The notes beneath the pieces are model-generated. The model saw nothing but the letters and a program-made list of their open reading frames with translations, made no database searches and was not told the DNA's origin. A DNA stretch of 64,000 nt, from IMG/VR virus record IMGVR_UViG_3300033066_001625, positions 25,906 to 89,905 of that record; one strand, 5' to 3'. Both the position numbers and the translations under genes were made by a program. Below, piece after piece: positions 21,369-60,575 of the stretch (position 1 is its first letter; each line of letters opens with the position of its first letter). The DNA is from a virus. Taxonomy: Duplodnaviria; Caudoviricetes.

Positions 21369-21605
21369 ATGATTTACGGAAAAGTCAGAGAAAAGATGGA
21401 AAAAGTATTGCCATACTTTTTGTTCGCTTTTAATCCAAATGACAAGACACTCATTATGGTTTATACGGAAAGTTTTAACAAAATAACTCCGAACACCAAG
21501 CCATTTGTTGTGCAAAATACGGTAAACAATACTTTCGAGTATGAACAAGAAACTTATTCTGAGGATGAGTTTTGCAGATTGCTTGATCTATTAGTTTTTA
21601 CCTGA
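21369..21605 (+). CDS. small hypothetical protein, weak member of the C-terminal motif family (...EDEFCRLLDLLVFT*)
   Basis: ATG at 21369 preferred because the track TTG start at 21324 is the -35 box. Confidence 0.55.
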   Translation: MIYGKVREKMEKVLPYFLFAFNPNDKTLIMVYTESFNKITPNTKPFVVQNTVNNTFEYEQETYSEDEFCRLLDLLVFT

Positions 21606-21621
21606 TGATATAGGATTCGAC

Positions 21622-22758
21622 ATGAAAGTATGTTGGTTTGGATTTTTAGGCAAAAATCATAGTTGGTCTATTGTTGCCCAAAATATCTCTAGAGAATTGA
21701 TCAGATTGGGGCATGAGGTAGATTTGTTTTCTACCAATGGTTTAGAACACTTTCCAGAAGACCTAAAACCATATCTCAAAGGTTCTATAGAAGAATCTAC
21801 ACAAGTCACAGCAAACAATTATCAATCTATAATCGGCGGCAAATTAGACACCAAGTATGATATGCAACTATCATATACTGCTTTGAAGAATTTTCCTCAC
21901 TATTTTGTTAGAGGAAACAAAAACAGATTTGGTATTTGGAATTACGAAACCACCGTATTACCAACAGCTTTTGCCAAGTGCTATAAAGCTGTGGATAAAG
22001 TATTGCCCTCTTCTTCTTTTTCGAAGAAGATATTCATGGACAATGGTATTCCTGCCGAAAATCAAGTGATGATACCACATGGTATTCATTTGGATAGATT
22101 TCAAAACCTATCTAAATATCCTCTTAAAACTAAAAAGAAGTACAAGATACTTGCCAATATCGCTCAGCCGCATCTGAGAAAAAACATTCCTAATTTGTTG
22201 AAAACCTACGGTAAGGCATTCACTAAAAATGATGACGTATGTTTAGTTTTGAAGATTTCAAAACGCAATAGTAAAACTTCTTTCGAAGTCAATTTTGATG
22301 AGATTTACAAAGACTTCAAAACTAAATTCAAAAACCACGGAGATATAGAGATTTTGGATAAGTTCATTGTAGATATTGAATGTCTTTACAATGCTTGTGA
22401 TATGGTAATTACTATGGCTAATAGTGAGTGTTTTTGGATGCCAGGTTTAGAGGGATTTGCTGCCAACAAAATTGTGGTTGCACCTCGTTACGGCGGGCAG
22501 CTGGATTACATGAACGATGACAATTCTATTTTGATTGGTGGAAAAGAGATTCGCGCCGATATTAAGATGCAATATTGGGAGCCATCTGCTTATGCAAAAG
22601 TATTTGCTCCGGATGTTGATGAGTGTGCAGCCAAATTGAAAGATGTTATCGCTAACTATGATGATTATCTAGCTAAGTTTTCTCCCAAGATGCAAGAAAT
22701 ATTGCCTCAGTATACTTGGAGAAATGTCACTGAGAGAATTGTTTCTTTGTGTGAGTGA
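21622..22758 (+). CDS. GT-B fold glycosyltransferase (GT4-like)
   Basis: IPHGI, RKNIPNLLK, YNACDMVITMANSECFWMPGLEGFAANKIVVAPRYGG resemble GT4 C-terminal signature. Confidence 0.85.
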   Translation: MKVCWFGFLGKNHSWSIVAQNISRELIRLGHEVDLFSTNGLEHFPEDLKPYLKGSIEESTQVTANNYQSIIGGKLDTKYDMQLSYTALKNFPHYFVRGNKNRFGIWNYETTVLPTAFAKCYKAVDKVLPSSSFSKKIFMDNGIPAENQVMIPHGIHLDRFQNLSKYPLKTKKKYKILANIAQPHLRKNIPNLLKTYGKAFTKNDDVCLVLKISKRNSKTSFEVNFDEIYKDFKTKFKNHGDIEILDKFIVDIECLYNACDMVITMANSECFWMPGLEGFAANKIVVAPRYGGQLDYMNDDNSILIGGKEIRADIKMQYWEPSAYAKVFAPDVDECAAKLKDVIANYDDYLAKFSPKMQEILPQYTWRNVTERIVSLCE

Positions 22759-22761
22759 ATT

Positions 22762-22980
22762 ATGGAACCTATTAGACAAGAATTGGTTGTTTTGCCGGCT
22801 GATCCTGGTGTAGTTCATTTGGCAGCACATCGTCGACTTGTGATTACATCTGATGGCAAATTCCGCGTCAAGAAAAATACTGGCAAAATAGGGTTTACAG
22901 TCAGAGAAACAATAGGCATTGCAGTTATCAATACCAGGGGTGTTTCAAAGGGCAACAAATCTGTTATTATTGGTACATAA
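22762..22980 (+). CDS. hypothetical protein
   Basis: 72-aa ORF tightly packed in operon. Confidence 0.55.
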   Translation: MEPIRQELVVLPADPGVVHLAAHRRLVITSDGKFRVKKNTGKIGFTVRETIGIAVINTRGVSKGNKSVIIGT

Positions 22981-23010
22981 ATTTCATATTCATAATTTGG
23001 AGATTATATT

Positions 23011-23874
23011 ATGCCTGAAGGCGTTGAAGTAAAGATTAGTGGTGAACTAATAAAACCATTAGTTCAAAACAAATATGTAAGTAAAGTTCGTTTTGATGAT
23101 GATAGTAGATATGGATACAATAAACCAGAGGCAGAAGGTCATAAAGAGTTTCTAGATTCTTTTAGGAAATTAGAAAATATTGGATATGTTGTTTCACCTT
23201 TGAAGATTATTGATGTCAAATCAAAAGGCAAATTCATGTACTGGCAATTTGATAATGGCTGGTACATGTTTTGTACTTTTGGGATGACGGGGCAATGGTC
23301 TCCAAATCCTGGCAAACATATTTGTATGACCATGAAACTATATGATGATGAAGGTAAGTTTAGCGAAGTCTATTTCAATGACCCTAGACACTTCGGTTCT
23401 ATTAAATTTGTTTCATCTGAGAAAGAACTCAAAGAAAAGCTTGGAGAATTTGGTTGGGATCCTTTACAAACTCCATTAGATAAGTGGTCAGATTGGATAA
23501 AATCCGAATTGAAAAAATCAAAGAAGCCAATTGGACAAGTTCTATTGGATCAATCTGTCTTTGCAGGAGTTGGCAATTATATTAGAGCGGAAGCTTTGTA
23601 TGATGCCAAGATTTCTCCTTGGAAGTTGTGCAAAAACATGTCAAGTACAGAAGTTGATACTTTGTGTGAGTCAATCATAAAAGTTATGAAAGAATCTTAC
23701 GATCATCAGGGCGCAACGCTTCTCACTTACAAAGATGCTTATGGCAATGAAGGCAAGTATTCTTCCTGTTTTAAGGTTTATGGTAAAACCAAAGATCCAT
23801 TGGGCAATTCCATAAAATCTGAATCGACACCAGAAGGAAGAACTATTCATTGGTGTCCCGCAATCCAAAAATAA
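23011..23874 (+). CDS. Fpg/Nei DNA glycosylase/AP lyase, zincless-finger type
   Basis: N-terminal PEG.E, KGK, FGMTG, D.RHFG, H2TH LLDQSVFAGVGNYIRAEAL, C-terminal RTIHWCPAIQK without four-Cys finger. Confidence 0.9.
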   Translation: MPEGVEVKISGELIKPLVQNKYVSKVRFDDDSRYGYNKPEAEGHKEFLDSFRKLENIGYVVSPLKIIDVKSKGKFMYWQFDNGWYMFCTFGMTGQWSPNPGKHICMTMKLYDDEGKFSEVYFNDPRHFGSIKFVSSEKELKEKLGEFGWDPLQTPLDKWSDWIKSELKKSKKPIGQVLLDQSVFAGVGNYIRAEALYDAKISPWKLCKNMSSTEVDTLCESIIKVMKESYDHQGATLLTYKDAYGNEGKYSSCFKVYGKTKDPLGNSIKSESTPEGRTIHWCPAIQK

Positions 23875-23924
23875 TCTTTAATCACCAGATATAGAGGTAG
23901 CGAACTTTCATGAAGAGATGAAAT

Positions 23925-24890
23925 ATGTCGCTATCAACTAAGATATTAATTGCCCTCGGAGTAATCCTAGTCATTCTTGGACTAGGATTCATCATCTATA
24001 AACAAAACGAAATCTCAACTCGTCAACAAGCCATTGAAACACAAATTATTCGGCAAAAAGAATTGGCTGACAATATCATGCGTTCGCAAAGTGGTTATGC
24101 CACCAAAGATGATATTGAAAAATTTATCAAAGACAATGGTGTAAATCTAAAAGCTATTCAAGATGATTTGAATAAGCTACACGCTTCTATTAGTGCAGCC
24201 AATACAGTAGTAGTGATGAGTTCTGGACAAACAGCAGGTAATTTGCCTAGTAGTTCAACTGGTGTAGTTAATCCCACTCCTACTACCGTAGATACTTATG
24301 GCTATTTGAAAAATGCACAATTACTAAATCTTCACGAAGACTTTTCGGGAACTCCTGTTCCGATTGGTCAAGTGGGATTTTCCGCATGGCAACAAAATCC
24401 ATGGAATATTAACATCTCTCCAAGAGCATATAAAGTAACAAATGTTATTGGAACAGATGACAATCAAAGAACATATGTGTATAATAAATTCATAGTAACC
24501 GTTGACAACAAGGACTATGAGGTTAAGATAGCTAAGGCAGAAACTAAGCAAGAGTATCCAACAGCTAAATGGAGTTGGTGGAATCCTAGATTGTTTATTG
24601 GTGCCGATGGTGGAATTACAGTTAGTAAAGTTAAGGGAGAGTTTACCCCTAGCCTTAACTTAGGTATTATGTCTTATGGTCAGTACAAGACTTCACCTGA
24701 CTTCTCCGTACTACAAGTAGGTGTGGGTATAGGAGTTGTATCACAAAGACCACAATTCATTCTTACTCCTGCGGCTTATAATATTGGTAAACATATTCCA
24801 TTGATGAATAATACTTACATAGCACCTTCTGTGCAAGTTGGTACAGACGGTAGTGTTTCAATTATGGCGGGATTAAGGGTAGGACTATAA
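23925..24890 (+). CDS. membrane-anchored protein (N-terminal TM helix, coiled coil, C-terminal amphipathic beta strands)
   Basis: ILIALGVILVILGLGFIIY helix; Q/E/K-rich coil; Gly/aromatic alternating C-terminal strands. Confidence 0.7.
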   Translation: MSLSTKILIALGVILVILGLGFIIYKQNEISTRQQAIETQIIRQKELADNIMRSQSGYATKDDIEKFIKDNGVNLKAIQDDLNKLHASISAANTVVVMSSGQTAGNLPSSSTGVVNPTPTTVDTYGYLKNAQLLNLHEDFSGTPVPIGQVGFSAWQQNPWNINISPRAYKVTNVIGTDDNQRTYVYNKFIVTVDNKDYEVKIAKAETKQEYPTAKWSWWNPRLFIGADGGITVSKVKGEFTPSLNLGIMSYGQYKTSPDFSVLQVGVGIGVVSQRPQFILTPAAYNIGKHIPLMNNTYIAPSVQVGTDGSVSIMAGLRVGL

Positions 24891-24895
24891 CAAAT

Positions 24896-25093
24896 ATGGA
24901 ACTTGGAATTTACAGACATTACAAAGGAAAACTATACGAAGTAACCTCAGTTGCTAAACATACTGAGACTTTGGAAGAAATGGTTGTTTATAGGGATCTC
25001 AAAGACCAATATTGGGTTCGACCTTTGTCAATGTTTTTAGAACAAGTGGAGGTTGACGGTTCTTGGATTCCTAGATTTGAAAAGGCAATATGA
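24896..25093 (+). CDS. DUF1653-family small protein
   Basis: GIYRHYKGKLYEV...HTET.E.MVVY....WVRP..MF signature. Confidence 0.85.
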   Translation: MELGIYRHYKGKLYEVTSVAKHTETLEEMVVYRDLKDQYWVRPLSMFLEQVEVDGSWIPRFEKAI

Positions 25094-29279: not shown

Positions 29280-29885
29280 ATGGTTAAGAAAAAAGAAGAT
29301 GTAACTGGCGGTGAATTAACAGATGTTCCTAACGAACAATACAAGAAGTTTTTTGATAAATTCGCCGAAGTGGATACTCTAAGTCCGGAGAATTGGAAAC
29401 CAGTTCATATACTAGGATATTTCTGTAAGAAGTATCAAGAGACTTATGATAAGAAATATCAGTTTAAGTTTAATAGTCCATCTCCCATGAAGTGTTTTGA
29501 AGTCTTTCAAGTAAAGAAACTGGCGATGCATTTGACTGCTAATCCAACTCTGTTGAAAGAATACATAGATTGGGTGTATGATAACAAAGTAGTCAAAGCT
29601 AAAAGAAGGTTAACTTCTATTTCTTTTATGACTAATGAAGGGATTGTAAATGAATACAAATTCAACGTACTTCTTGCGGGCAAAAGAAATCTCAATGTCG
29701 ATAGGTCAACACCTTTACCCGATAAGTATAAGACCATTTTTTCAGGAGCCGGCGTATCAATTAGCACTTATGGTGATTTGGCGTTTGTTTCTCAAATGAG
29801 CGACATGTCTGATGAACTCAAAACAGCTTTCTCTACTATAGAGGAAATGGGTTTTGATAAGGAAGTCTTGGGAAGAATTGTATGA
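29280..29885 (+). CDS. hypothetical protein, possible replication initiator/loader partner
   Basis: 201 aa, upstream of DnaC-like and DnaB genes; function inferred from context only. Confidence 0.45.
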   Translation: MVKKKEDVTGGELTDVPNEQYKKFFDKFAEVDTLSPENWKPVHILGYFCKKYQETYDKKYQFKFNSPSPMKCFEVFQVKKLAMHLTANPTLLKEYIDWVYDNKVVKAKRRLTSISFMTNEGIVNEYKFNVLLAGKRNLNVDRSTPLPDKYKTIFSGAGVSISTYGDLAFVSQMSDMSDELKTAFSTIEEMGFDKEVLGRIV

Positions 29886-30223
29886 TCTTAGAATCTTATG
29901 CCAAACATGCAAAAAGATTTAGTGGCATGTCACCTCATCAAATACTACCCTCTTTGAATATTAAATGGGGGATGGCGACCACCAAACTAGAAACAATAGA
30001 AGAAGATGTTAAGAGTTACATACAAAGTAATATGAAATTCTTAACAACTTTTATGGATTTCCCCGATGATTTAAATCAAAACCTCGATAAGATTATCTGC
30101 TTCTATATTAATGATTTATTAATATCAGATGATGTGATTTGTTGTTTTGTATACACTGAGGAAACTCTTGATGATTTGCTTGTGAAAATGGAAAGAATAG
30201 TAAACATAAAGGCATTCATATGA
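29882..30223 (+). CDS. small protein with C-terminal motif (...MERIVNIKAFI*)
   Basis: 113 aa; ATGA overlaps at both ends. Confidence 0.7.
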   Translation: MILESYAKHAKRFSGMSPHQILPSLNIKWGMATTKLETIEEDVKSYIQSNMKFLTTFMDFPDDLNQNLDKIICFYINDLLISDDVICCFVYTEETLDDLLVKMERIVNIKAFI

Positions 30224-30540
30224 TTGTTTACAATAAAGAAGTAAGTGGGGCATTAGAAAAATTCTTAGCTGATAATAACTTAAAACAACCTGATGTATCA
30301 ATGCTTTTTTCTTTTACTCATATTGAAGCAACTGGAGTATTCAAGGCTGATTTTCAAGAAGAAAATAGATATTATGATGCTCGAATATTTTTTATCGTGC
30401 CCGAACAAGTTGCTGGCACATGCTTTCTACTTCCTTCTGAATACAATAGTGATATGAATGTAATGTATTTCATTACTCTAAGCCCAGAAGAAATAATGAA
30501 GTTTTTGGATAAGTTTCCAAAGATAAAGGTGTTTTTATGA
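30220..30540 (+). CDS. small protein with C-terminal motif (...LDKFPKIKVFL*)
   Basis: 106 aa; ATGA overlaps at both ends. Confidence 0.7.
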   Translation: MIVYNKEVSGALEKFLADNNLKQPDVSMLFSFTHIEATGVFKADFQEENRYYDARIFFIVPEQVAGTCFLLPSEYNSDMNVMYFITLSPEEIMKFLDKFPKIKVFL

Positions 30541-30941
30541 CTCCACAAAAAGGACAGCATATTAGATGTTTATTGCGCAACAATTTGATAATTGATGGAA
30601 TTGTAGAATCGTGGTCAGATGCCAAATCCGTATTACGATCTTTAGATGATACATCTATTTCTGTTATCCAACACTCGGCGCAGGATATAGTGGTGATCAA
30701 AATTATACTGAAAGAGCCTGTCAAAGTAAAAATTGATTTATCCACTCAATTTGAAGAGGAATTAGCCAAGCCAAGTAATGATGAATTAAGAGTCAAAAAC
30801 ATGGCGGAGCTGAAAACACTTTTGAATGAACAAGAAAAGAAAATCATTGCGGAGAAGCTCAAGGATCATCATGTTAATGGTGATGTAAAGAAAGTGACCT
30901 ATGGACAACCTGGATTTTTCAAGAAGCCGCGCCCTCAATAA
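30537..30941 (+). CDS. hypothetical protein (Sm/SH3-like N-terminus, coiled C-terminus)
   Basis: 134 aa; overlaps 5' end of DnaC-like gene. Confidence 0.6.
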   Translation: MTPQKGQHIRCLLRNNLIIDGIVESWSDAKSVLRSLDDTSISVIQHSAQDIVVIKIILKEPVKVKIDLSTQFEEELAKPSNDELRVKNMAELKTLLNEQEKKIIAEKLKDHHVNGDVKKVTYGQPGFFKKPRPQ

Positions 30942-31605
30942 CGTTCCACAAAAAAAGCTACAAGAAAAGCTGAATGAGATTAATAATTCTGAATTGGATT
31001 TATCTTCCAAGAATATTAAACTGATTGCTATCAATAGATATGCCGAAAGCAATATTCCCATTGAATATTGGGGATTGAAAATGGAGAGAGATTTTCATGG
31101 AGATCCCAGATTACTAACCAAGTACAATGAATATATTAGTGACTTGAAAAGTTCATACATCAATGGCAATTCCATTTGTTTTGCCGGAGGTCACGGTTTA
31201 GGTAAGACTATGACCGTATGTTGTATTCTCAAAAAAGCATGTGGCAAGAACTATAGTTGTTTGTATACTACGCTTAGTGACATTGTAAATGTATTAACTC
31301 AATCTTCTGGAGAAGACAAGTATCTTTCCAGAAGAGAGTTGGCTTTAGTAGATTTCTTAGTGATTGACGAGTTTGATTCTAGATTCATGCCTTCCGAAAA
31401 CGCAGCAGATTTATATGCCAGAAGTTTGGAGGGAGTTTTTAGAACGCGCAGTCAAAACAAACTACCTACCTTGATGTGTACAAATAGTCCTAATATTGTG
31501 GAGTCATTCAATGGACCTTTGAAGCAAAGCATAGATAGTTTGATGAAGGGTTATACAAAAACATTTCCGGTCTTGGGCGAAGATTTTAGAAAGAAGAGAG
31601 CATGA
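30901..31605 (+). CDS. DnaC/IstB-like AAA+ helicase loader
   Basis: Walker A GGHGLGKT, Walker B FLVIDE, R.R..NKLPTLMCTN; adjacent to DnaB. Confidence 0.85.
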   Translation: MDNLDFSRSRALNNVPQKKLQEKLNEINNSELDLSSKNIKLIAINRYAESNIPIEYWGLKMERDFHGDPRLLTKYNEYISDLKSSYINGNSICFAGGHGLGKTMTVCCILKKACGKNYSCLYTTLSDIVNVLTQSSGEDKYLSRRELALVDFLVIDEFDSRFMPSENAADLYARSLEGVFRTRSQNKLPTLMCTNSPNIVESFNGPLKQSIDSLMKGYTKTFPVLGEDFRKKRA

Positions 31606-33011
31606 ATTACAATTTAGATTTGGTTATCTTAAAAACCCTTATCACCAACAAAAAACATGCCTTGGATTTTGCTAATGAGTGCGATCCCAAGTTGTTTTCT
31701 CCTGATGTATGGAACTTTGCTAATCTTGTTGTAGGATATGTTAAAACCTACAAAGAATTACCTACGCTAAGAGTAATTGTAGAGAAGTTAGAAAAAGGAT
31801 CCAATGACAGACTAATTGAAAGCGTCAAAAAAGTCTGGTCATCTCTAGATGGCGTGGAGTACAACGACAAAGAATATAAACACGATCTGGAGAAAATCAA
31901 AAAACGTTTTGCTGAGAAACAGATCATAGCTGTTAAAGAGAAGTTGGCGTCTATTGAGCCCGGTTCAATGGACATTAACCGCGCAGTTGGTGAACTTCAA
32001 AAAACAGTACAATCTATCAAAAGCCTTAATCAAACTAGAGCTTATGAAAGAAAAACTCTAAAGGAAGCTGTACCTATCTTTAGAGAAGAATATAATGCCA
32101 AGATGGATGATCCTCATTTTGATCGTGGTATCAAAACAGGATATTCCTATTTTGACCATGTAACCGATGGTTTGAGACCTGGTGAGTTGGTACTGATTGG
32201 TGGTGAATCTGGTGGTGGTAAGTCCATGTTACTGATGAACATGGCAGTTCAGCTTTGGATGCAAGAGAATACTATCTATACAGATGAAGCCAATTTTACT
32301 GGCGGAAACAGTGTATTGTATTTTTCGCTAGAAATGCCTTTTAAGCCCTGTTTGAATCGTGTTCTAGCCAGGATGTCATCTGCCCCTTCAAAATTGATTA
32401 GAAACGCCAAATTGAACCCGGAAGAGGCTAGTAAGCTAAAGAGATCTCTCAAGTTTATTACCAAGTATCCTCATCAATTTGAAATAGTAGATATTCCTAG
32501 AGGGGCTACTATGGAAAATTTGGAATTAATATATGAGGAAGCGAAGGTTCATTACGACCCCAAGATTGTGGTTATCGACTATCTAGGTTTAATGGATTAT
32601 GAGAGTGCCGATTTGGATGACTGGTTGAAATTAGGAAAAATTGCCGAAAAGATTCACGAGTTTGCCAGAGTTCATAACCTTATTGTATTAAGCGCTGTTC
32701 AGTTAAACAGAGCAAAAGGTGGTAAAGAAATGGAAGATAAGATTGGTTTACACAGAATTGGTCGTTCTGCTTTGATTATGCAGAATGCTAACATTGCTAT
32801 TCAAATTGAAACCCGCCCAAATGAGAAACAATATCCAGATATGTATTATCATTTGATCAAGAATAGAGATGGTGAATTAGGTAAGGGCAAACTTATCAAG
32901 AATTTAGCTTGCGGTACTTTGCTAGATGATAAGATTGACGATGATGATACAGAATTCTACGACAGAGACCCAGATGATATTTCTGAGAAATTAGATTTGT
33001 TAGATTTATGA
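31602..33011 (+). CDS. dnaB: replicative DNA helicase, DnaB family
   Basis: GIKTGY..FD..TDGLRPGEL, GESGGGKS, FSLEM, VVIDYLGLM, QLNR, KNRDG. Confidence 0.92.
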   Translation: MNYNLDLVILKTLITNKKHALDFANECDPKLFSPDVWNFANLVVGYVKTYKELPTLRVIVEKLEKGSNDRLIESVKKVWSSLDGVEYNDKEYKHDLEKIKKRFAEKQIIAVKEKLASIEPGSMDINRAVGELQKTVQSIKSLNQTRAYERKTLKEAVPIFREEYNAKMDDPHFDRGIKTGYSYFDHVTDGLRPGELVLIGGESGGGKSMLLMNMAVQLWMQENTIYTDEANFTGGNSVLYFSLEMPFKPCLNRVLARMSSAPSKLIRNAKLNPEEASKLKRSLKFITKYPHQFEIVDIPRGATMENLELIYEEAKVHYDPKIVVIDYLGLMDYESADLDDWLKLGKIAEKIHEFARVHNLIVLSAVQLNRAKGGKEMEDKIGLHRIGRSALIMQNANIAIQIETRPNEKQYPDMYYHLIKNRDGELGKGKLIKNLACGTLLDDKIDDDDTEFYDRDPDDISEKLDLLDL

Positions 33012-33025: not shown

Positions 33026-33370
33026 ATGAACGAAATAGTATGTGTATCATTTTTTGATATGATTGAGAAATACGTTAATCATCTACGAATAGAATCTGTT
33101 GATCATAAATTCTTATCAAATGATCAGTATAAAAGATTATTGATTGGTTTTAGTTGCTGTGATGAACTTTATCTATTTAGATTAACCGATCTTAGGCGAA
33201 GAAAAATGTTTCCAGAGAATACTGAAGTCAGTGAACATTGTAGGGCATTTCTAGAAAGCCAAGCAACCTCTTCTGAAAAAAGAGTAGAGTTAGCTAACAC
33301 AGTTGATCTGTGTGTTAAAACCTCCGTAAAAGATCTAGAAAGATATTTTGAATTGAAAGCATTTTGGTGA
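33026..33370 (+). CDS. small protein with C-terminal motif (...LERYFELKAFW*)
   Basis: 114-aa ORF. Confidence 0.65.
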   Translation: MNEIVCVSFFDMIEKYVNHLRIESVDHKFLSNDQYKRLLIGFSCCDELYLFRLTDLRRRKMFPENTEVSEHCRAFLESQATSSEKRVELANTVDLCVKTSVKDLERYFELKAFW

Positions 33371-33377: not shown

Positions 33378-33560
33378 ATGAAACCTGATCAGGAAATAAT
33401 AGCAGAAGCAGTTCGCATAGAATACGAAGAAAAAACTGGTCAGTTATTTATTGTATTTGAGGTGACAAACGAAAAGCTAAAACAAGATATAAAGAAGAAC
33501 TGGACCAAAGATATTGAATATAAGATTGTAGATAAACATTTGGTAAAAAACGATGAGTGA
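33378..33560 (+). CDS. hypothetical protein
   Basis: 60 aa, GAGGG SD. Confidence 0.6.
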   Translation: MKPDQEIIAEAVRIEYEEKTGQLFIVFEVTNEKLKQDIKKNWTKDIEYKIVDKHLVKNDE

Positions 33561-33876
33561 AACATACAAATGCAATTTATATACAGATCTTTGTGAGTTA
33601 TTTTTTGATATGAAAATGACAGCACAGGGCATTATATTACCTTGTGATGATTCTTTGAATTTATCATTTGATTGGGTAAGTGATGAAAATCATAATTTTT
33701 ACAGCATCAAGATTAAAGATGCAAATAAGTGTTTGAATATAGACTCAATGTTTTCTTCTTTAGAAAAAGAAGAGTTAAGAAGATATTTTGCTAAACCTAG
33801 AATATATGAAAATACTTGCAAAATATTACAATTGCCTATCTTTAATAGAATGGCTAATTTAAAGTGTTTTATTTAA
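33553..33876 (+). CDS. small protein with C-terminal motif (...NRMANLKCFI*)
   Basis: 107-aa ORF. Confidence 0.65.
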   Translation: MSETYKCNLYTDLCELFFDMKMTAQGIILPCDDSLNLSFDWVSDENHNFYSIKIKDANKCLNIDSMFSSLEKEELRRYFAKPRIYENTCKILQLPIFNRMANLKCFI

Positions 33877-35373: not shown

Positions 35374-37896
35374 ATGCAGGGATACACTTACGCTCAGGTT
35401 TTAGAAAAGTCCACAGAATACTTTAATGGAGATGATTTTGCTGCCAAAGTATTCGTCGACAAATATGCGTTGCAGACTACAGAAGGTGAATATTTAGAAC
35501 TAACCCCTGTTGACATGCATCATCGTTTGGCAAAAGAGTTTGCTAGGATTGAGAAGAAGTATCCTAATCCTTTATCAGAAGAACGTATTTTTAGCCTAAT
35601 CGATCGTTTTCAATACATAGTTCCACAGGGCAGCCCTATGTCTGCTATTGGAAATCCCTATCAACTACAAAGTTTATCCAATTGCTTTGTGGTTCAGGGG
35701 GTTTACTCTAACAAACTAGACTCCTATGGCGGAATTATGTTAGCTGATCAAGAGCTAGCTCAAATCATGAAACGTCGTGGCGGGGTTGGTCTTGATATTT
35801 CTGGTATTAGACCCAAGGACACACTAACTGCTAATGCCGCTAAAACTACTGATGGTATTGGTGTATTCATGGAAAGGTTTAGTAATACCTGCCGTGAAGT
35901 AGCTCAAAATGGTAGACGTGGCGCCGAAATGATCACCATTTCTGTAAACCATCCAGAAATTGAAACGTTTATCAATATCAAAAGAAACTTGAAGAAGGTC
36001 ACTGGAGCCAATATTTCTATTCGTTTCAACGATCAATTCATGAAAGCCGCTAAGAAGAATGAAAAGTACACCCTTCGTTGGCCAGTTGATGCAACACCCG
36101 AAAACGCCAAAATCACTAAGATAGTCGATGCTAAAAACATTTGGGACCAAGTGATCGATGCCGCCTGGACTTCTGCCGAACCAGGCGTTTTGTTTTGGGA
36201 TAATGTTAAATCTACTACGCCAGCCGATATTTATGAAGAAGAAGGATACGGCTCTATCTCCACCAATCCTTGTGGAGAAATCGTATTGTCAGCTTATGAT
36301 GCTTGTCGTTTGTTAGTATTGAATTTATCCAGTTATGTAACAAATCCATTTACAGCTGATGCTAAATTCGATTTTGATTTGTTTCATGAACATACAATTA
36401 TTGCGCAGAGATTGATGGATGATATTATTGATCTAGAAATTGAATGCATTGATCGTATTATTGAAAAGGTCAAATCAGATCCTGAGCCCGAAGAGGCAAA
36501 ACAAACTGAATTGAATCTTTGGAGAAAGATTCGTGCTGCCAATATTGGTGGTCGTAGAACAGGTTTGGGTATTACTGCCCTAGGCGATTGCATTGCTATG
36601 TTGGGTGTTAGATATGGTTCTGCAGAATCTATTGAATTAACCCGCAAGATTTATCGTGCTTTGGCAGTTGGCGCTCATACTTCATCATGTGTAATGGCAA
36701 AAGAAAGAGGAGCATTTCCAACTTTCAGTTATTCTAAAGAGAAGGATCATGCTTACCTAAAGAGCATTATGACTGATGCTGGTAAATCAGTTGGTACAAT
36801 GTGGAAAAAGTATGGTCGTCGCAATATTGCCTTGACTACCACAGCCCCAACTGGTTCTGTCTCTACATTAACTCAAACAACATCTGGTATTGAGCCGGCT
36901 TATCTTTTGTCTTATGTAAGACGTAAGAAGATAAATCCATCGGATAAAAACGCTAGAGTGGATTTTGTGGATACCCTGGGTGATAGGTGGCAAGAATTCA
37001 CCATTTACCATCATGGTGTAAAGAAATGGATGGATGTTACTGGCGAATCAGATATTGCCAAATCGCCATATTGGAAAGCTACTTCTAATGATGTAGATTG
37101 GGTTGCATCTGTAGATCTACAAGCAGCCGCACAACAATCTGTTGATCATAGCATTAGCAAGACTTGTAACTTGCCAAATGATGCAACAAGAGATATTGTT
37201 TCTCAAGTTTATATGAGGGCTTGGGAGTCTGGTTGCAAAGGATTTACAGTTTACCGTGATGGTTGTCGTACTGGCGTATTACTTAGCGAAGAATCTGCCA
37301 AGAAGGTTAAAACTCCTGGCGAGAGACCTGCTGACGTAGACTATGTTATGGCTCCCAAGAGACCTATAGAATTGCCTTGTGACATTAAGAAAGCCAAAGT
37401 TAATGGAGAGGCTTGGACTATATTTGTGGGATTGTTAAATGGTAAACCTTATGAAATCTTTGGTGGTCTTTCCAAGTTTTTGGATATTCCTAATAAATAC
37501 AAGACTGGAAAAATCCTTAAGAATGGGAAAAACTCTGATGGATTAACTACTTACAATTTAGTGATTGGAGAAAATTCACCAGACGATAAGATGGTCATTA
37601 AAGATATTGCCAATATCTTTGAGAATAAGACTCATGAAGCTTTCACTAGAATGATTTCTTTGAATCTTAGACATGGCACTCCAATACAATATGTAGTGGA
37701 GCAATTAACCAAAGATAAATATGCAGAAATGACATCATTTTCTAAAGTTGTAGCCAGAGTATTGAAGTCCTACATCAAGGATGGAAGTAAAGCTGCTTCT
37801 GAGAAAGTTTGTGTTTCCTGCAATGCAGAGGGAACTTTGGTGTATCAAGAAGGCTGTATAACTTGTACTTCTTGTAAGTATAGTAAGTGTGGATAA
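35374..37896 (+). CDS. nrdJ: class II (adenosylcobalamin-dependent) ribonucleotide reductase
   Basis: SLSNC, RRGAEM, TNPCGEI, RRTGLG, APTGS, SISKT.N, VYRDGCR, C-terminal CxxC...EGC..C..C zinc ribbon; no small subunit nearby. Confidence 0.88.
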   Translation: MQGYTYAQVLEKSTEYFNGDDFAAKVFVDKYALQTTEGEYLELTPVDMHHRLAKEFARIEKKYPNPLSEERIFSLIDRFQYIVPQGSPMSAIGNPYQLQSLSNCFVVQGVYSNKLDSYGGIMLADQELAQIMKRRGGVGLDISGIRPKDTLTANAAKTTDGIGVFMERFSNTCREVAQNGRRGAEMITISVNHPEIETFINIKRNLKKVTGANISIRFNDQFMKAAKKNEKYTLRWPVDATPENAKITKIVDAKNIWDQVIDAAWTSAEPGVLFWDNVKSTTPADIYEEEGYGSISTNPCGEIVLSAYDACRLLVLNLSSYVTNPFTADAKFDFDLFHEHTIIAQRLMDDIIDLEIECIDRIIEKVKSDPEPEEAKQTELNLWRKIRAANIGGRRTGLGITALGDCIAMLGVRYGSAESIELTRKIYRALAVGAHTSSCVMAKERGAFPTFSYSKEKDHAYLKSIMTDAGKSVGTMWKKYGRRNIALTTTAPTGSVSTLTQTTSGIEPAYLLSYVRRKKINPSDKNARVDFVDTLGDRWQEFTIYHHGVKKWMDVTGESDIAKSPYWKATSNDVDWVASVDLQAAAQQSVDHSISKTCNLPNDATRDIVSQVYMRAWESGCKGFTVYRDGCRTGVLLSEESAKKVKTPGERPADVDYVMAPKRPIELPCDIKKAKVNGEAWTIFVGLLNGKPYEIFGGLSKFLDIPNKYKTGKILKNGKNSDGLTTYNLVIGENSPDDKMVIKDIANIFENKTHEAFTRMISLNLRHGTPIQYVVEQLTKDKYAEMTSFSKVVARVLKSYIKDGSKAASEKVCVSCNAEGTLVYQEGCITCTSCKYSKCG

Positions 37897-41013: not shown

Positions 41014-41365
41014 TTTGGTATTTGTGTCCGGAGAAAATTCTCCGGACAAAATCAAAGAAAGAAAGGGAAAGTATTTTGATTGCTTATACTGCAAAAGCAG
41101 TATAAAAGCTCATTTACTATCACCGATCAAATCATACTACTATTGTAAATCTTGTAGTTGTCAATATATTGGCTGGAATGATATTTTAGTTAAAATAGAA
41201 ATTGATACTCAAATTAATGAAAAGAATTACACTGTAGAATTGGATTTGATGAAAAACAAAACCAATCTGATTCAAGGTGGCATAATATATTCGTACGATC
41301 AATGTTTAGCAATCTCACCAACAAATGTAAGGAATAAGGTGTTGACATGGCTGATGATGTTGTAA
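41003..41365 (+). CDS. zinc-ribbon-containing small protein
   Basis: CLYC and CKSC pairs; hydrophobic C-terminus ...NKVLTWLMML*. Confidence 0.6.
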   Translation: MKSDLVFVSGENSPDKIKERKGKYFDCLYCKSSIKAHLLSPIKSYYYCKSCSCQYIGWNDILVKIEIDTQINEKNYTVELDLMKNKTNLIQGGIIYSYDQCLAISPTNVRNKVLTWLMML

Positions 41366-41706
41366 TTTATACAGAAGATGATGAAAAGTATGGCGAAGAG
41401 CATCGAGAGGCGCGCAGAGCGAACAGGCTCATCGACGAGGAATTGTCGAAGTTCTCCTGGAAAACTATAAGAAAGTTTGAAGAGCTTTTCCCATGCAAGA
41501 ATCCAATTCATACTATAGAAGTGAAAAACAAAGAGTATGTAGCAGAACAGAATATCATTGCTGTTAAGATGAAAGTAGCCAGAAATCAAGGTGTTGAAGT
41601 AAAGACAATTAAAGAAGAATACACTACTGAAAATATCAGATATGAAACTCCAGAAGAATTTTGGAAGAGATGGAAGAAGTTTTCCAGAGTGAGGTCTTTT
41701 GTATGA
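41347..41706 (+). CDS. small protein with C-terminal motif (...WKKFSRVRSFV*)
   Basis: 119 aa; ATGA overlap with next gene. Confidence 0.65.
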   Translation: MADDVVIYTEDDEKYGEEHREARRANRLIDEELSKFSWKTIRKFEELFPCKNPIHTIEVKNKEYVAEQNIIAVKMKVARNQGVEVKTIKEEYTTENIRYETPEEFWKRWKKFSRVRSFV

Positions 41707-42023
41707 ACGATTCGTGGGCTGAAATCAAACAAGAAATAGAAAAACATCCTCATGAACTATGGGTTGAGTTTATGAAACTTTTGCCATGTGAAAGAAAGAA
41801 CTACTTCTTACCTATTCCCAAGAAAGTCTTCAAACCCGATCCTAATATCAAAGTGATTGTCAAAGGACGACAGGTGGGAGCCACTACATTTCACACTGGT
41901 CATTTACATCCTTGGTTATTGCAACTTCCGATGGATAGAAAAGAAAAACATGTCATTTGCGCAGATATCAAAGATTTTTGGTACAGATGGAATAGATTCA
42001 AAAAGATTAAGTTGTTCTTATGA
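41703..42023 (+). CDS. small protein with C-terminal motif (...WNRFKKIKLFL*)
   Basis: ATG 41703 in ATGA overlap; contains KGRQVGATT, reminiscent of terminase Walker A-region motif. Confidence 0.6.
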   Translation: MNDSWAEIKQEIEKHPHELWVEFMKLLPCERKNYFLPIPKKVFKPDPNIKVIVKGRQVGATTFHTGHLHPWLLQLPMDRKEKHVICADIKDFWYRWNRFKKIKLFL

Positions 42024-56980: not shown

Positions 56981-57008
56981 TTGACAGGTAAATTCACGTG
57001 ATTATACT
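56981..57008 (+). promoter_or_regulatory. sigma70-like promoter TTGACA-N16-TATACT
   Basis: Intergenic, 36 nt before ATG 57045. Confidence 0.7.
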
Positions 57009-57044
57009 CTACACCAAGGCTACAAGCACGACAGGTGTAATTTA

Positions 57045-57635: not shown

Positions 57636-58623
57636 AATTCTATATGCTGCCGGCAATAATGAAAATGCCAAAATACAGCTTTCAAGATTTATTCAATCAA
57701 TCGAAGGCAAACCGTATTTTATCAAAGTAGCAGCATATAAAAAATCCAGTCCAACTATTAACATAGATTGGACCCTCGATTCTCTCCTTAATATGTTCAA
57801 CCCCGAACATATCTCTATTGATAACAACGACAATTTAATAACCTACTTTGAACAAGTGAAGTATTTCAATCCTGATTTGATTATCAGTGATTTGGAGTAC
57901 TTCACTTCTTACATTGCTAACATTCTCAATATTGAATTGTGGCAATGCAGTTCATTATTATTGAATGTGGCGTTGACCCAAGAAGAAAAGTACAACTTGG
58001 GCTTATTCAAGAATTATTCCTACCTAACTAACAAAAATCCCCAAACATCTCAAAGAATAATCCACATGGTGGATAACTCCGCCAAGAACTTTGTTTATTC
58101 ACATTTTGGTGACACTTTAGATGTGCCCAAGATAAAAGACAATTTTGAATGGATAAGACCCTATCATCAATTAGGTAAATTGTCCATTCCATGTCAGCAC
58201 AATATAGTGGCGGGGATGTTATCCAACAATAAAAAAATCTTTTCACTTCTCAGCAAATATCCAGACTGTGTTACTTTTAGCGAATTTGACCAAGAATCTT
58301 ACGCGAAAGTATCTTTGAAGTCTTACTCCAATCAAGAAGAATACTTTTGCAACTTAACAAATTGTAATTTATTTGTCTGTGAAGGTCAAGCCAGTTTCTT
58401 GGCGGATGCTTTCTACAATCACAAATATTCTGTTATAATGCCAAATTTGAAAGATATTGAGTGTATTACCAATTCTCTTTTTTCGAGTAAAAGGGGTTTA
58501 AGCTTCTCGATATATGAGGAGACACAAGTAGATTTGAATGACCATCTTGGATTAAGTGTGCCCGGGAATAAGAATGATAAAATCAAATTCTTGCATGAGC
58601 ATCTAGAAGAAACTCACTCCTGA
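57628..58623 (+). CDS. divergent GT-B glycosyltransferase-like protein (MJ1255/GT28-like)
   Basis: PDLIISDLEY and GQASFLADAFY..K....P resemble PDLVISDFE / GFTLISEALY.GKP. Confidence 0.55.
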   Translation: MLKILYAAGNNENAKIQLSRFIQSIEGKPYFIKVAAYKKSSPTINIDWTLDSLLNMFNPEHISIDNNDNLITYFEQVKYFNPDLIISDLEYFTSYIANILNIELWQCSSLLLNVALTQEEKYNLGLFKNYSYLTNKNPQTSQRIIHMVDNSAKNFVYSHFGDTLDVPKIKDNFEWIRPYHQLGKLSIPCQHNIVAGMLSNNKKIFSLLSKYPDCVTFSEFDQESYAKVSLKSYSNQEEYFCNLTNCNLFVCEGQASFLADAFYNHKYSVIMPNLKDIECITNSLFSSKRGLSFSIYEETQVDLNDHLGLSVPGNKNDKIKFLHEHLEETHS

Positions 58624-58663
58624 GGATATATCTATTTTGGTAGGAGTTAATAAAAGGAATAAT

Positions 58664-59128
58664 ATGAACAAATTTCAACCACAAGGCAAGATGAAAATTA
58701 TCAAAGGCACTATTCTAGCTCCTGAGAATGCCGGACTAAGATTTGTATTGTCAGTCAATAACGTACTTGGTAAAGTAGATGGCAACTGGTATAAGGTTTT
58801 TGATAAGAGATGGAGAAGAGTTAAGGAAGACGCCAAGGGTTGGTTCAACACTAGAACCGGAGCCTATAAATTGGGTGCTGTTAACACTACCGCCGTACAA
58901 AGCGACACCTGGGTTATTCATATGTTATGTCAAGACGACAAGCTAGCCACGGATACCAAAGGACTGGAAGAATGTCTTAAAAAGGTTTGCTCAATGGCAA
59001 AATATGAAAAGGCAACAGTCCATGTTCCTAGTTCCATCACAGAGGCGGTACCAGAGCTAACTGAAATGCTTTCGAAGCACCTTGTAGATAATGGAGTTAG
59101 TGTTTACTTCTACGAAGAGCCGGCATAA
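58664..59128 (+). CDS. divergent macro-domain protein (Poa1p/DarG-like fold)
   Basis: IIKG.I, VNN.LG, KRW..V, YKLG.V, WVIHMLCQ, GLEECLKKV...A....ATVHVP; AAAGGA SD before ATG 58664. Confidence 0.6.
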   Translation: MNKFQPQGKMKIIKGTILAPENAGLRFVLSVNNVLGKVDGNWYKVFDKRWRRVKEDAKGWFNTRTGAYKLGAVNTTAVQSDTWVIHMLCQDDKLATDTKGLEECLKKVCSMAKYEKATVHVPSSITEAVPELTEMLSKHLVDNGVSVYFYEEPA

Positions 59129-59143
59129 TTAAGTATTCTAGTC

Positions 59144-59530
59144 ATGGCTAGACTAAAAATCGGTGATCGTATTATCTGTCGTCTTAGAGAAAAAACCGTC
59201 GTTAATCCCTACACCGCAGATTACGATGAGGAAATCTCACTCGATATCATAGCCGTAGATAACTTTGGGTATTACCTATATATTCCACCCTACACCTTCA
59301 TGAAAGGAAGTGTCAGGGTGGATTCTTTTTTGCTCAAACAACTATCGTTACACAAAAAATTTCTAGGCGACGATATCCTATACATTCGCGAGGGCTTTGT
59401 CTATAAAGTCAAGTCCGTCGTTGATGGCTGCTTCTGTGACAAGTGCAAAGACTTTTTCTACCAAGCTGCTCCAAATCAAGAAAATGGCGGACTCATATGT
59501 TGGTCTTGTCGTAACGACCCCTACAGATAA
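59144..59530 (+). CDS. hypothetical protein with C-terminal zinc ribbon
   Basis: CDKC and CWSC pairs. Confidence 0.65.
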   Translation: MARLKIGDRIICRLREKTVVNPYTADYDEEISLDIIAVDNFGYYLYIPPYTFMKGSVRVDSFLLKQLSLHKKFLGDDILYIREGFVYKVKSVVDGCFCDKCKDFFYQAAPNQENGGLICWSCRNDPYR

Positions 59531-59555
59531 CTATCGTTAATTCGATATTCATGTT

Positions 59556-60251
59556 ATGAAATCTTTTGCCTTTGACGATCTCGACAATCTATTAAATGGC
59601 GTTCTCCAAAGTCTACATGGCGGAGGTGCTATCGAGGAAGATGATCCCTATAAATTGCTTGAGAAATCTCCTAACGAGGAGCGCCAACCAACTGGCGGCT
59701 TCGGCAGCCAAGTATTAGCCAATGCCAAAGCTGATTTAGGCGTGCGCGAGGATTTGGGTAAAAATGATGGTAAAAGAATCAGAGAGTATTTCAAATACTT
59801 CAATATGGGCGGGGGACAAGATTGGTGTGCTGCGGCGGTGTCAGCTTGGATGAGGGAAGCGGGGGGCGGACCTATTCCTGGTGCTGTCGGAGCTAGAAAT
59901 ATTGCCGGACAATTTGCTCAAATAGGCAAATGGGTTTCAAAAGATAAGATTACCCCACAGGCTATGACACCAGGTAATATTGTGGTGTGGAGCCGTGGAG
60001 GTCCTGATTCTTGGAAGGGACATATAGGAGTATTAGAGTCATTCGATGGTCGCAATGGCTTTACTTCCATTGAAGCTAACTCTGGTCCACGCTCGGATGC
60101 GGTAGTTAGCAACAGTCATACCATCAATGACTCTAATTTTCTTGGGGTGGGGATTTTATCTGATTATGTTCCAGATAACTCTAAGAGAGCATCTGTAAGA
60201 AAAGTTGAAGGGCTGATTAAGATTTACTTAGAAAAATGCTTTGAATTTTAA
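59556..60251 (+). CDS. CHAP-domain peptidoglycan amidase/endopeptidase
   Basis: QDWCAAAVS (Cys), WKGHIG (His), IEANS. Confidence 0.82.
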   Translation: MKSFAFDDLDNLLNGVLQSLHGGGAIEEDDPYKLLEKSPNEERQPTGGFGSQVLANAKADLGVREDLGKNDGKRIREYFKYFNMGGGQDWCAAAVSAWMREAGGGPIPGAVGARNIAGQFAQIGKWVSKDKITPQAMTPGNIVVWSRGGPDSWKGHIGVLESFDGRNGFTSIEANSGPRSDAVVSNSHTINDSNFLGVGILSDYVPDNSKRASVRKVEGLIKIYLEKCFEF

Positions 60252-60575
60252 GACGTTGGTGATCATATCCAACATTTCTGGCAAGTTTTCTAATTCAGTA
60301 TTCTTGTAGTTATTATCAACTACCAATTTATTCTGTTGTTTATAGAATACAAATGGTCCAAGACCAATACTACTGTATTCTAATTCTATCATTTGCTCTT
60401 CTACGTATTTAACAATAGCAAGCGCGGCAAGTTTCTTATTGCCTGATATCTTGAGTATTGAGGCATCACTATCAGTTAGAACTTCATATTCTGGACCGTG
60501 AATTTTTATTTCACTTTTCGTTCTAAAACCATAGACACCCGGAATTGTTCCAGTCCAACCGGGAAAATTAGCCAT
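60228..60575 (-). CDS. small protein with C-terminal motif (...ITNVLKFKAFF*)
   Basis: ATG 60575 overlaps thyX stop; 3' end overlaps convergent CHAP gene by 24 nt. Confidence 0.6.
   Translation of the reverse strand: MANFPGWTGTIPGVYGFRTKSEIKIHGPEYEVLTDSDASILKISGNKKLAALAIVKYVEEQMIELEYSSIGLGPFVFYKQQNKLVVDNNYKNTELENLPEMLDMITNVLKFKAFF

What the first reader, a model, noticed from the sequence alone, without database searches (positions are those of the whole stretch)
21369..60575. Dispersed family of dissimilar small proteins sharing one C-terminal signal: acidic cap, amphipathic helix, [LIVF]-[KR]-x-F-hydrophobic-COOH
Seen: eight small ORFs (~105-160 aa) with no evident body similarity end alike: 29882 RIVNIKAFI*, 30220 KFPKIKVFL*, 33026 RYFELKAFW*, 33553 RMANLKCFI*, 41347 KFSRVRSFV*, 41703 RFKKIKLFL*, 42389 KFEKLKAFV*, 60228(-) NVLKFKAFF*; weaker 21369 RLLDLLVFT* and 41003 KVLTWLMML*. 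Phe is always penultimate with a basic residue two before it, and most have an upstream S/T-x-E/D-E/D helix cap (LSPEEIM, LSEDETL, TPEEFW, SEDEF). None of the recognisable enzymes or structural proteins end this way. The genes sit in clusters between core genes and on both strands. Inference: a portable address tag shared by accessory proteins, e.g. a ligand for a common hub or PDZ-type protease (timed degron), a membrane-targeting helix, or a sorting signal for capsid loading or a phage compartment. I know of no description of such a system; this is the best candidate for an undescribed one here.
Basis: partly seen in the sequence, partly recalled or inferred. Interest (0 to 1): 0.82.

Follow-up and report, generated by a model that had tools for sequence, protein, structure and literature searches.

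The report
Shared C-terminal tail on megaphage proteins
A clade of uncultured giant bacteriophages ends 2-4% of its genes (small, soluble, otherwise unrelated proteins and at least one enzyme) with the same 9-12-residue peptide [RK]-h-x-[KN]-[LM]-K-[AV]-F-[WLIV]-stop, which looks like an undescribed portable handle whose reader is still unknown.

Summary
Eight of about 80 genes on the contig end in [ILVFM][KR]xF[ILVFWM]-stop against 0.04 expected (P 4e-16). Three complete 433-452 kb relatives carry 12-22 strict members each (P 1e-14 to 1e-30). The back-translated KLKAFW-stop hits 84 IMG/VR stretches against 8 for a residue-swapped control.

The conserved unit is 9-12 residues; Arg/Lys at -9, which was not used for selection, is present in 60 of 67. 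The bodies are not one domain. There are 54 BLAST clusters among 72 members. Two confident AlphaFold models differ: an orphan alpha/beta fold and a MORN-like repeat. A dNMP kinase carries the tail as a 17-residue add-on that its orthologue lacks.

The RBS or stop-start overlap explanation fails genome-wide. The genes are AT-rich, acidic, without membrane segments, turn over fast, and sit beside homing endonucleases.

No reader was found. The phages encode no PDZ domain, S41 protease, beta-clamp, PCNA or proteasome. Each complete genome has tandem ClpP genes but no Clp unfoldase.

Portability is supported. The hub, degron and sorting mechanisms remain inference. I found no description in Pfam, PHROGs, PDB, GenBank phages or the literature. 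The scan has noted other, different shared tails in other phages.

The parts
29882..30223 (+). Tail gene g29882, 113 aa, ends ERIVNIKAFI; stop overlaps the next start (ATGA)
   Evidence: orthologues with the tail in L002, G001 and G002
30220..30540 (+). Tail gene g30220, 106 aa, ends DKFPKIKVFL; a one-gene cassette absent from the 99%-related L002
   Evidence: no homologue found in viral contigs
33026..33370 (+). Tail gene g33026, 114 aa, ends ERYFELKAFW; lies directly after DnaB, a slot that holds a tail gene in many relatives
33553..33876 (+). Tail gene g33553, 107 aa, ends NRMANLKCFI
   Evidence: orthologue G003_374499 ends DRLTELKSFL
41347..41706 (+). Tail gene g41347, 119 aa, ends EEFWKRWKKFSRVRSFV; paralogue of the next gene
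   Evidence: (aligned to g41703 over 102 aa, E 3.5e-5)
41703..42023 (+). Tail gene g41703, 106 aa from the ATG at 41703 (120 aa if the TTG at 41661 is used), ends DFWYRWNRFKKIKLFL; the same body type occurs in a 47%-GC phage (L148)
42389..42871 (+). Tail gene g42389, 160 aa, ends QKFEKLKAFV; orphan alpha/beta fold in which the tail forms the C-terminal helix 143-159
60228..60605 (-). Tail gene, 125 aa (start uncertain), ends NVLKFKAFF; last gene of a minus-strand unit; lacks R/K at -9
   Evidence: 54-aa orthologue in G001
21324..21605 (+). Diverged member, up to 93 aa, ends YSEDEFCRLLDLLVFT (Lys at -4 replaced by Leu)
   Evidence: (G003 counterpart ends YSEKEFLRVLDLLIFV)

Best explanation
The eight ORFs belong to a large, fast-turnover library of small, soluble, mostly acidic accessory proteins of a clade of uncultured ~440 kb phages. 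Members share a portable C-terminal module. It is an amphipathic helix of about 12 residues that leans on whatever body precedes it and ends in a basic-aromatic tip, K-[AV]-F-[WLIV]-COOH.

Shown: the module is real, is selected as a peptide, is strictly terminal, sits on unrelated folds, and can be added to an enzyme.

Inferred: it works as a docking handle. One shared partner, from the phage or the host and not yet identified, recognises the free carboxyl end with Phe -2, Lys -4 and Arg/Lys -9. That partner would recruit, sort or dispose of all these proteins as one class.
For: - Enrichment: P 4e-16 in the contig and 1e-14 to 1e-30 in three complete relatives. IMG/VR scan: 84 stretches against 8 for the swapped control, and 95 tail genes of 1236 in hit loci against 1 of 115 in control loci.
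- Independent position: R/K at -9 in 60 of 67, although not used for selection.
- Unrelated bodies: 54 BLAST clusters of 72. Bodies include helical, Zn-ribbon, MORN-like repeat and alpha/beta types.
- Two confident models with different architectures: pLDDT 84.9 and 94.2. One has no PDB neighbour; the other is MORN-like.
- A dNMP kinase (PF21448, 55.9 bits) carries a 17-residue tail that its 52%-identical G003 orthologue lacks.
- The huge HRxDGPA repeat family is mostly tail-less, and only a subset carries the tail.
- The tail is better conserved than the body in homologous pairs (68 against 42%, and 76 against 57%). It is 47% identical between unrelated bodies, against 7% at a control position.
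- In the best model the last three residues, AFW, leave the helix and lose confidence.
- Conserved residues cover most of the helix circumference (my own helical-wheel reading).
Against: - No reader was found. The phages encode no PDZ, S41, beta-clamp, PCNA or proteasome/HslV.
- No recurrent protease or ATPase neighbour appeared.
- No solved structure resembles the tail.
- In both models the tail helix has high confidence, so it is docked on its own body. That also fits a purely structural role.
- The last residue varies (W, L, I, V) within every genome, with no genome-wide switching that would point to a co-evolving pocket.
- Comparable shared-tail findings elsewhere in this scan had their 'one reader' reading priced at 5-33% on later checks.
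Confidence: 0.45

Rival explanations
1. There is no common reader. The tail is the conserved last helix of one very fast-evolving paralogue superfamily. It was inherited by descent and duplication, and is kept because it caps and stabilises small beta-rich domains. The bodies have diverged, or been swapped, beyond recognition.
For: - Tandem arrays of up to 9 genes, and adjacent paralogues such as g41347 and g41703.
- Similarity often extends to a preceding beta-strand plus helix cap.
- Both AlphaFold models place the helix on the body at high pLDDT.
- In the HNH case the 'tail' is largely that family's own terminal helix.
Against: - A complete dNMP kinase gains the tail as a 17-residue extension that its orthologue lacks.
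- All-helical and Zn-ribbon bodies also carry it.
- The invariant residues include charged and likely surface residues (K -4, R/K -9), and the position is strictly at the C-terminus.
- The MORN-like and alpha/beta bodies are different architectures.
Confidence: 0.25
2. The tail is a C-terminal degron. It delivers this class of (probably early) proteins to an AAA+ protease, for example a host ClpX/ClpA-type unfoldase working with the phage's own tandem ClpP pair. That would give timed removal.
For: - Each complete relative encodes two adjacent full-length ClpP genes at about 160 bits.
- The tail is terminal, with basic residues followed by non-polar ones. From my own knowledge, this loosely resembles the MuA-type ClpX signal RRKKAI.
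Against: - No Clp-class unfoldase is present in the phages. Only a weak 370-aa AAA_5/AAA_2 protein was found.
- The tail matches no known ClpX, ClpA or Lon signal.
- An enzyme (dNMP kinase) carries it.
- The helix is docked on the body rather than exposed.
Confidence: 0.12
3. The tail is a membrane- or surface-targeting amphipathic helix of the MinD/FtsA type, which concentrates the proteins at the inner membrane.
For: - It is a C-terminal amphipathic helix with Lys/Arg and terminal Phe/Trp.
- The bodies are soluble, with no membrane segment in any of 72.
Against: - Sequence conservation is position-exact and covers more than one face of the helix, which is unusual for lipid-binding helices.
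- The helix is predicted packed on the body.
Confidence: 0.06
4. The tail is a by-product of nucleic-acid constraints. It would encode the Shine-Dalgarno sequence and start codon of the next gene (AAGG-N7-8-ATGA), or a recombination site for cassette shuffling.
For: - In the window 5 of 8 tails end in ATGA, with AAGG or GAGG 7-8 nt upstream, which is the phage's usual RBS geometry.
- g30220 is a precise one-gene indel between two tail-coding direct repeats.
Against: - Genome-wide, Lys -4 is AAG in 23% against 25% overall.
- None of the 29 Trp-ending members overlaps a downstream start.
- ATGA overlap is only 29% against 15%.
- Same-codon use at identical residues is 0.56 against 0.49 expected.
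- Members at operon ends keep the motif.
Confidence: 0.03

Closest known systems
T4-family clamp-binding C-termini of gp43, gp55 and gp33 (review PMC2988020)
   Same: A short C-terminal peptide shared by otherwise unrelated phage proteins. It is read by one hub and is interchangeable between carriers.
   Different: The T4 tails are hydrophobic and acidic, sit on flexible linkers and occur on three proteins. Here the tail is basic, continues a docked helix and occurs on 15-27 proteins per genome. No clamp gene was detected in the phages (the gp45 model was uninformative).
PIP-box, Qxx[ILM]xx[FY][FY], often C-terminal in archaeal and viral clients (own knowledge)
   Same: Same spacing of an aliphatic residue at -5 and an aromatic/hydrophobic pair at -2 and -1, at the extreme C-terminus.
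   Different: The defining Gln is replaced by a hydrophobic residue. The invariant Lys -4 and Arg/Lys -9 have no PIP counterpart. The hosts are presumably bacteria, and no PCNA was found.
HbYX motif of proteasome activators (own knowledge)
   Same: A strictly penultimate aromatic residue preceded by a small or hydrophobic residue, with a free carboxylate required.
   Different: The residue is Phe, never Tyr. The conserved part is much longer. No proteasome or HslV is encoded in the phages.
T4 capsid-targeting sequence of internal proteins (own knowledge)
   Same: A portable address peptide shared by dissimilar accessory phage proteins.
   Different: It is N-terminal and removed by the prohead protease. 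Nothing here links the tail genes to the virion.
PeSL mobile regulatory cassettes of T4-type phages (PMC2839356, PMC4122927)
   Same: Small, variable ORFs in hyperplastic regions, gained and lost as single-gene cassettes between repeated flanks, next to homing endonucleases.
   Different: PeSLs are conserved DNA (promoter plus stem-loop). Here the repeated element is coding and is conserved as a peptide.
MORN-repeat proteins (applies only to the HRxDGPA/WYxNG body type)
   Same: A 23-residue beta-hairpin repeat. All top Foldseek hits are MORN proteins, with probabilities of 0.82-0.97 among the leading MORN hits.
   Different: E-values are only about 0.05-0.1. No Pfam model matches. The tail is not a MORN feature.

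Membership tests
PIP-box (PCNA-interacting peptide) | Gln at motif position 1 | tested here: not met
   The equivalent position, -8, is I/L/F/M/Y in 50 of 67 members. Gln is not among the seven commonest residues there.
PIP-box (PCNA-interacting peptide) | Aliphatic residue at position 4 and an aromatic pair at positions 7-8 | tested here: inconclusive
   L/M at -5 in 45 of 67 and F at -2 in 67 of 67. The last residue is W in 29 but L, I or V in 37.
PIP-box (PCNA-interacting peptide) | A PCNA-type clamp available to bind it | tested here: not met
   PF00705 is absent from three complete genomes, and the control rang in 4 archaea. The host is unknown.
Bacterial beta-clamp-binding motif QL[SD]LF | The Q-L-x-L-F pentapeptide, and a beta clamp | tested here: not met
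   The logo has no Gln and has Lys where Leu or Ser is expected. PF00712 is absent from the phages. The host clamp could not be tested.
T4-type clamp-binding C-termini | Hydrophobic and acidic C-terminal epitope (PMC2988020) | tested here: not met
   The tail is basic: K/R at -4, K at -6 and R/K at -9.
T4-type clamp-binding C-termini | A gp45-type clamp gene in the phage | tested here: inconclusive
   PF02916 found nothing, but the control rang nowhere.
HbYX proteasome-activator motif | Hydrophobic-Tyr-X at the free C-terminus | tested here: not met
   The penultimate residue is Phe in 67 of 67, never Tyr in the core set. A few KAY[IL] variants exist.
HbYX proteasome-activator motif | A proteasome or HslV-type ring | tested here: not met
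   PF00227 is absent from three complete genomes, and the control rang in 10.
PDZ / tail-specific protease ligand | Hydrophobic last residue with a free carboxylate | tested here: met
   The last residue is W, L, I, V or F in 67 of 67.
PDZ / tail-specific protease ligand | A PDZ domain or S41 protease in the system | tested here: not met
   PF13180 and PF03572 are absent from the phages, with positive controls. Host proteins could not be tested.
Clp C-terminal degrons (ssrA LAA type; MuA RRKKAI type) | Sequence class of the last 3-6 residues | tested here: not met
   K-[AV]-F-[WLIV] matches neither class (the classes are from my own knowledge).
Clp C-terminal degrons (ssrA LAA type; MuA RRKKAI type) | Clp protease components present | tested here: inconclusive
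   Two ClpP genes per complete genome, but no ClpX, ClpA or ClpC-class unfoldase.
MinD/FtsA-type membrane-targeting sequence | C-terminal amphipathic helix that is free to insert into lipid | tested here: inconclusive
   The helix is amphipathic, but it is predicted docked on the body at pLDDT 82-96. No experiment was possible.
PeSL mobile regulatory cassettes | Conserved non-coding DNA (promoter plus stem-loop) flanking the cassettes | tested here: not met
   The repeated element is coding. Codon identity is near expectation, 0.56 against 0.49. Lys codon use equals the genome's.

The most novel reading that the evidence does not exclude
The tail is an address label. A single reader protein, from the phage or the host, grips the K-x-F-hydrophobic-COOH tip of 15-27 unrelated accessory proteins (and occasional enzymes) per genome, and handles them as one client class by recruitment, sorting or timed disposal. 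This would be a client-library system specific to a widespread clade of uncultured giant phages.
Probability: 0.3. Interest if true: 0.8.

Novelty: new variant of a known kind. Interest (0 to 1): 0.62.

Why it matters
Giant phages carry hundreds of small genes of unknown function. A peptide that labels 2-4% of them (3-6% of the small genes in the complete genomes, and nearly a quarter of those on this contig), across many uncultured phage contigs, gives a way to treat these genes as one class.

If the tail is a docking handle, one pull-down with one peptide would identify a hub of giant-phage infection biology and assign a shared pathway to dozens of orphan proteins at once. The tail would also be a ready-made 12-residue tag for delivering cargo to that hub.

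If it is only a structural cap, it is still a useful marker of a fast-evolving accessory gene family, and an example of a mini-module that can be added to an enzyme.

Tried and rejected
1. RBS or ATGA-overlap by-product. It looked plausible in the window but was rejected genome-wide.
2. One homologous domain. Rejected by body clustering, two different folds and the kinase with and without the tail.
3. Known families. Pfam and PHROGs on the 10 window ORFs and on 65 members found only one HNH protein. In that protein the tail is mostly the HNH family's own terminal helix.
4. Phage-encoded readers. S41, PDZ_2, beta-clamp, PCNA and proteasome/HslV are absent. The gp45 model was uninformative. The M50 protease is detected in only two of the three complete genomes and not in G002, the genome richest in tail genes. 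The AAA_2 hits are a weak 370-aa AAA_5-like protein.
5. Recurrent neighbours. They are homing endonucleases and the DnaC/DnaB/Zn-ribbon/sigma module, not a candidate reader.
6. Tail profile against 5.8e9 proteins. It had low power: 8 hits at E up to 10.
7. Tail profile against PDB sequences: no hit at E up to 10.
8. Cultured phages. No DNA or tail match in GenBank phages. DnaB is at most 26% identical to any cultured phage.
9. Literature. Searches for the motif strings and for related concepts found no description.
10. Structure neighbours of g42389. None in the PDB. One uncharacterised uncultured-phage protein in BFVD.
11. ESM Atlas. It returned only unnamed viral clusters.
Full report
**Where the window lies.** The window is bases 25906-89905 of an 89.9 kb IMG/VR contig that CheckV rates 21% complete. 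Using the DnaB-like helicase (31602-33011) as an anchor, I found relatives in IMG/VR. They include three complete or near-complete genomes of 433-452 kb, one with terminal repeats. No cultured phage is close: DnaB is at most 26% identical and there is no DNA match. I fetched the three large genomes whole and analysed them alongside the contig.

**The observation.** All eight C-terminal strings are present.
- The strict pattern [ILVFM][KR]xF[ILVFWM]-stop ends 8 of 80 called genes. The expected number, from the frequency of the same pattern inside proteins, is 0.044 (P 3.6e-16). None of 310 non-gene ORFs carries it.
- The complete relatives have 16/690, 22/686 and 12/712 strict members, each with about 0.4 expected (P 2e-20, 1e-30, 4e-14).
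- With looser variants the family is 2-4% of all genes and 3-6% of genes of 170 aa or fewer in the complete genomes.
Arg/Lys at -9 is present in 60 of 67 and was not used to select members. Position -8 is hydrophobic, -6 is K/N, -5 is L/M, -4 is K/R (67/67), -3 is A/V/S, -2 is F (67/67) and -1 is W/L/I/V. Positions -11/-12 are weakly hydrophobic. Glu at -16 occurs in only 21 of 67, and nothing is conserved further upstream.
- Non-family genes show no terminal bias.
- 21369 is a diverged member with a G003 counterpart. 41003 is not a member.

**Is it a nucleic-acid artefact?** In the window, 5 of 8 tails end in ATGA with AAGG or GAGG 7-8 nt upstream. That is the phage's normal ribosome-binding geometry, so this had to be tested across all 72 members.
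- Lys -4 is AAG in 23% of cases against 25% genome-wide.
- None of the 29 Trp-enders overlaps a downstream start.
- ATGA overlap is 29% against 15%.
- Where unrelated members share a residue, they share the codon 56% of the time against 49% expected.

The peptide is what is conserved. The overlap is an opportunistic use of it.

**Are the bodies one domain?**
- After removing the last 22 residues, the 72 members fall into 54 BLAST clusters, and only orthologues group together.
- By eye the bodies include coiled-coil or helical, CxxC...CxxC Zn-ribbon, HRxDGPA/WYxNG repeat and beta-rich types.
- Pfam and PHROGs recognise essentially none of them.
- AlphaFold on g42389 with its six homologous sequences (five database homologues plus the G001 orthologue) gives pLDDT 84.9 and pTM 0.77. 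It is an alpha/beta domain whose last strand (133-139) is followed by the tail helix (143-159, pLDDT 93 then 82). It has no PDB neighbour: Foldseek E is above 0.7 and the best VIA Z is 4.1. Its only relative is one uncharacterised uncultured-phage protein in BFVD.
- AlphaFold on a repeat-type member with 41 sequences gives pLDDT 94.2. It is a beta-hairpin repeat followed by helix 84-94. The final A-F-W is non-helical and less confident. Its neighbours are MORN-repeat proteins.
- The clearest case is a 213-aa dNMP kinase (PF21448, 55.9 bits) on a contig from the same sample as the 99%-related L002. It ends ...SADEFRRILKLKSFL. Its 52%-identical orthologue in G003 stops 17 residues earlier, without the tail.
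- An HNH endonuclease also matches the logo. Its homologues share the preceding helix and differ only in the last five residues, so that case is weak.
- In homologous pairs the last nine residues are better conserved than the body (68 against 42%, and 76 against 57%). Between unrelated bodies they are 47% identical, against 7% at a control position.

**How widespread is it?**
- A profile of the tails found, outside the clade, 85-88-aa HRxDGPA-repeat proteins ending CSSQEEFEKL[IL]KLKAFW.
- Their soil contigs carry 7 of 37 and 8 of 15 tail-ending ORFs, including non-repeat bodies.
- The repeat family itself is huge, with 22,448 representative clusters, and is mostly tail-less. Its last repeat is normally followed by an [ST]xEEF helix.
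- The back-translated K-L-K-A-F-W-stop hits 84 IMG/VR stretches, against 8 for K-L-K-F-A-W-stop.
- In the hit loci, 95 of 1236 genes carry the tail, against 1 of 115 in control loci. GC ranges from 29 to 47%, and arrays reach nine genes. About half are repeat type; the rest fall into at least eight other body types, including the window's g41347/g41703 type.
- No GenBank phage has it.

**Genomic behaviour.**
- Tail genes are more AT-rich than other genes, including other small genes (for example 0.31 against 0.40 in G001, P 4e-8). Their bodies are acidic (median pI 5.5), and none of 72 has a membrane-like segment.
- Their number and position between the same core genes change even among close relatives. 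More distant relatives have none at the DnaB locus.
- g30220 is a precise one-gene indel relative to the 99%-related L002, between two tail-coding direct repeats.
- The most frequent neighbours are GIY-YIG homing endonucleases and the DnaC/DnaB/Zn-ribbon/sigma module.

They behave as accessory cassettes in hyperplastic slots. This is reminiscent of PeSL cassettes in T4-type phages (PMC2839356), but the repeated element here is a peptide.

**Search for a reader.**
- The three complete genomes encode no S41 protease, PDZ domain, beta-clamp, PCNA or proteasome/HslV, all with positive controls.
- The gp45 model was uninformative.
- An M50 protease is detected in only two of the three complete genomes and not in G002.
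- Each complete genome has two tandem full-length ClpP genes but no Clp-class unfoldase.
- No PDB sequence resembles the tail.
- The last residue varies within every genome, without concerted switching.

**Interpretation.**
- Shown: a real, peptide-level, strictly terminal, portable module on unrelated folds.
- Inferred: its function.
- The helical wheel places -12, -8, -5 and -1 on one hydrophobic stripe. Phe -2 and Arg/Lys -9 lie on one flank, and Lys -4 and hydrophobic -11 on the other. More than one face is therefore constrained.
- Together with the enzyme add-on and the frayed A-F-W tip, this favours a docking handle (confidence 0.45) over a purely structural cap of a diverging paralogue family (0.25).
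- Degron (0.12) and membrane-helix (0.06) readings are special cases without direct support.
- The closest known principle is the interchangeable clamp-binding C-termini of T4 gp43, gp55 and gp33 (PMC2988020). The spacing resembles a PIP box, and the penultimate aromatic resembles HbYX. The defining features of all three are not met.
- This scan has met other, different shared tails in other phages, and later checks priced their 'one reader' reading low. I therefore put the bold reading at 0.3.

Noticed in passing
L028:10327-11509 (G001:310327-311509); also G002:66562-67706 and G003:217515-218653: Two tandem full-length ClpP genes (about 160 bits each) in every complete relative, next to a DksA/TraR zinc-finger gene. 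No ClpX, ClpA or ClpC-class unfoldase is present in the phage.
   Followed up: partly
window 30220-30540 against L002:4866-5000: g30220 is a precise one-gene insertion or deletion between two tail-coding direct repeats (ATAAAGGnnTTynTATGA). Both states keep the ATGA stop-start overlap with the next gene.
   Followed up: yes
L097:2002-2640: A dNMP kinase (PF21448) with a 17-residue KLKSFL tail. The contig comes from the same sample as the 99%-related L002, so it may be another piece of the window's own phage population. The G003 orthologue lacks the tail.
   Followed up: yes
L026:8758-9871 (G001:268755-269871), and 8 IMG/VR loci: A sigma-70 region-4-like HTH gene (160 aa) is consistently paired with the 'DLYDIL..KLKLKAFW' type of tail gene.
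   Followed up: partly
L005:4226-6004 and L012:4226-6004: The DnaC/IstB-like loader gene is 592 aa here, against 234 aa in the window (30901-31605). It probably carries an inserted element, either an intein or a fused endonuclease.
   Followed up: no
L004:9562-12226, L005:11154-12131, L008:9287-11975, against window 35374-37896: The 840-aa ribonucleotide reductase of the window is split into two ORFs (about 320 and 565 aa) in some relatives.
   Followed up: no
L083:4794-6983: An IMPDH gene interrupted by an intein (Hom_end_hint, Intein_splicing) lies on a soil contig where 8 of 15 ORFs carry the tail. An IF-1-like gene and a SET-domain gene lie nearby.
   Followed up: no
window 41661-41706: The start of the sixth tail gene is ambiguous: TTG at 41661 or ATG at 41703. 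The ATG overlaps the stop of the preceding paralogue as GTATGA and is the more likely start.
   Followed up: partly
all tail genes of G000-G003: Tail genes are markedly more AT-rich than other genes, including other small genes (GC 0.27-0.32 against 0.34-0.40). Their bodies are acidic while the tail is basic.
   Followed up: yes
L030:5677-6786 (G001:345674-346786): A 370-aa AAA_5/AAA_2-like ATPase lies 1-3 kb from a tail gene (ending ...LDEVSRALEQKMFL) that is conserved in all three complete genomes. RNA-repair genes (two PNKP-like, RlaP) lie between and around them.
   Followed up: partly
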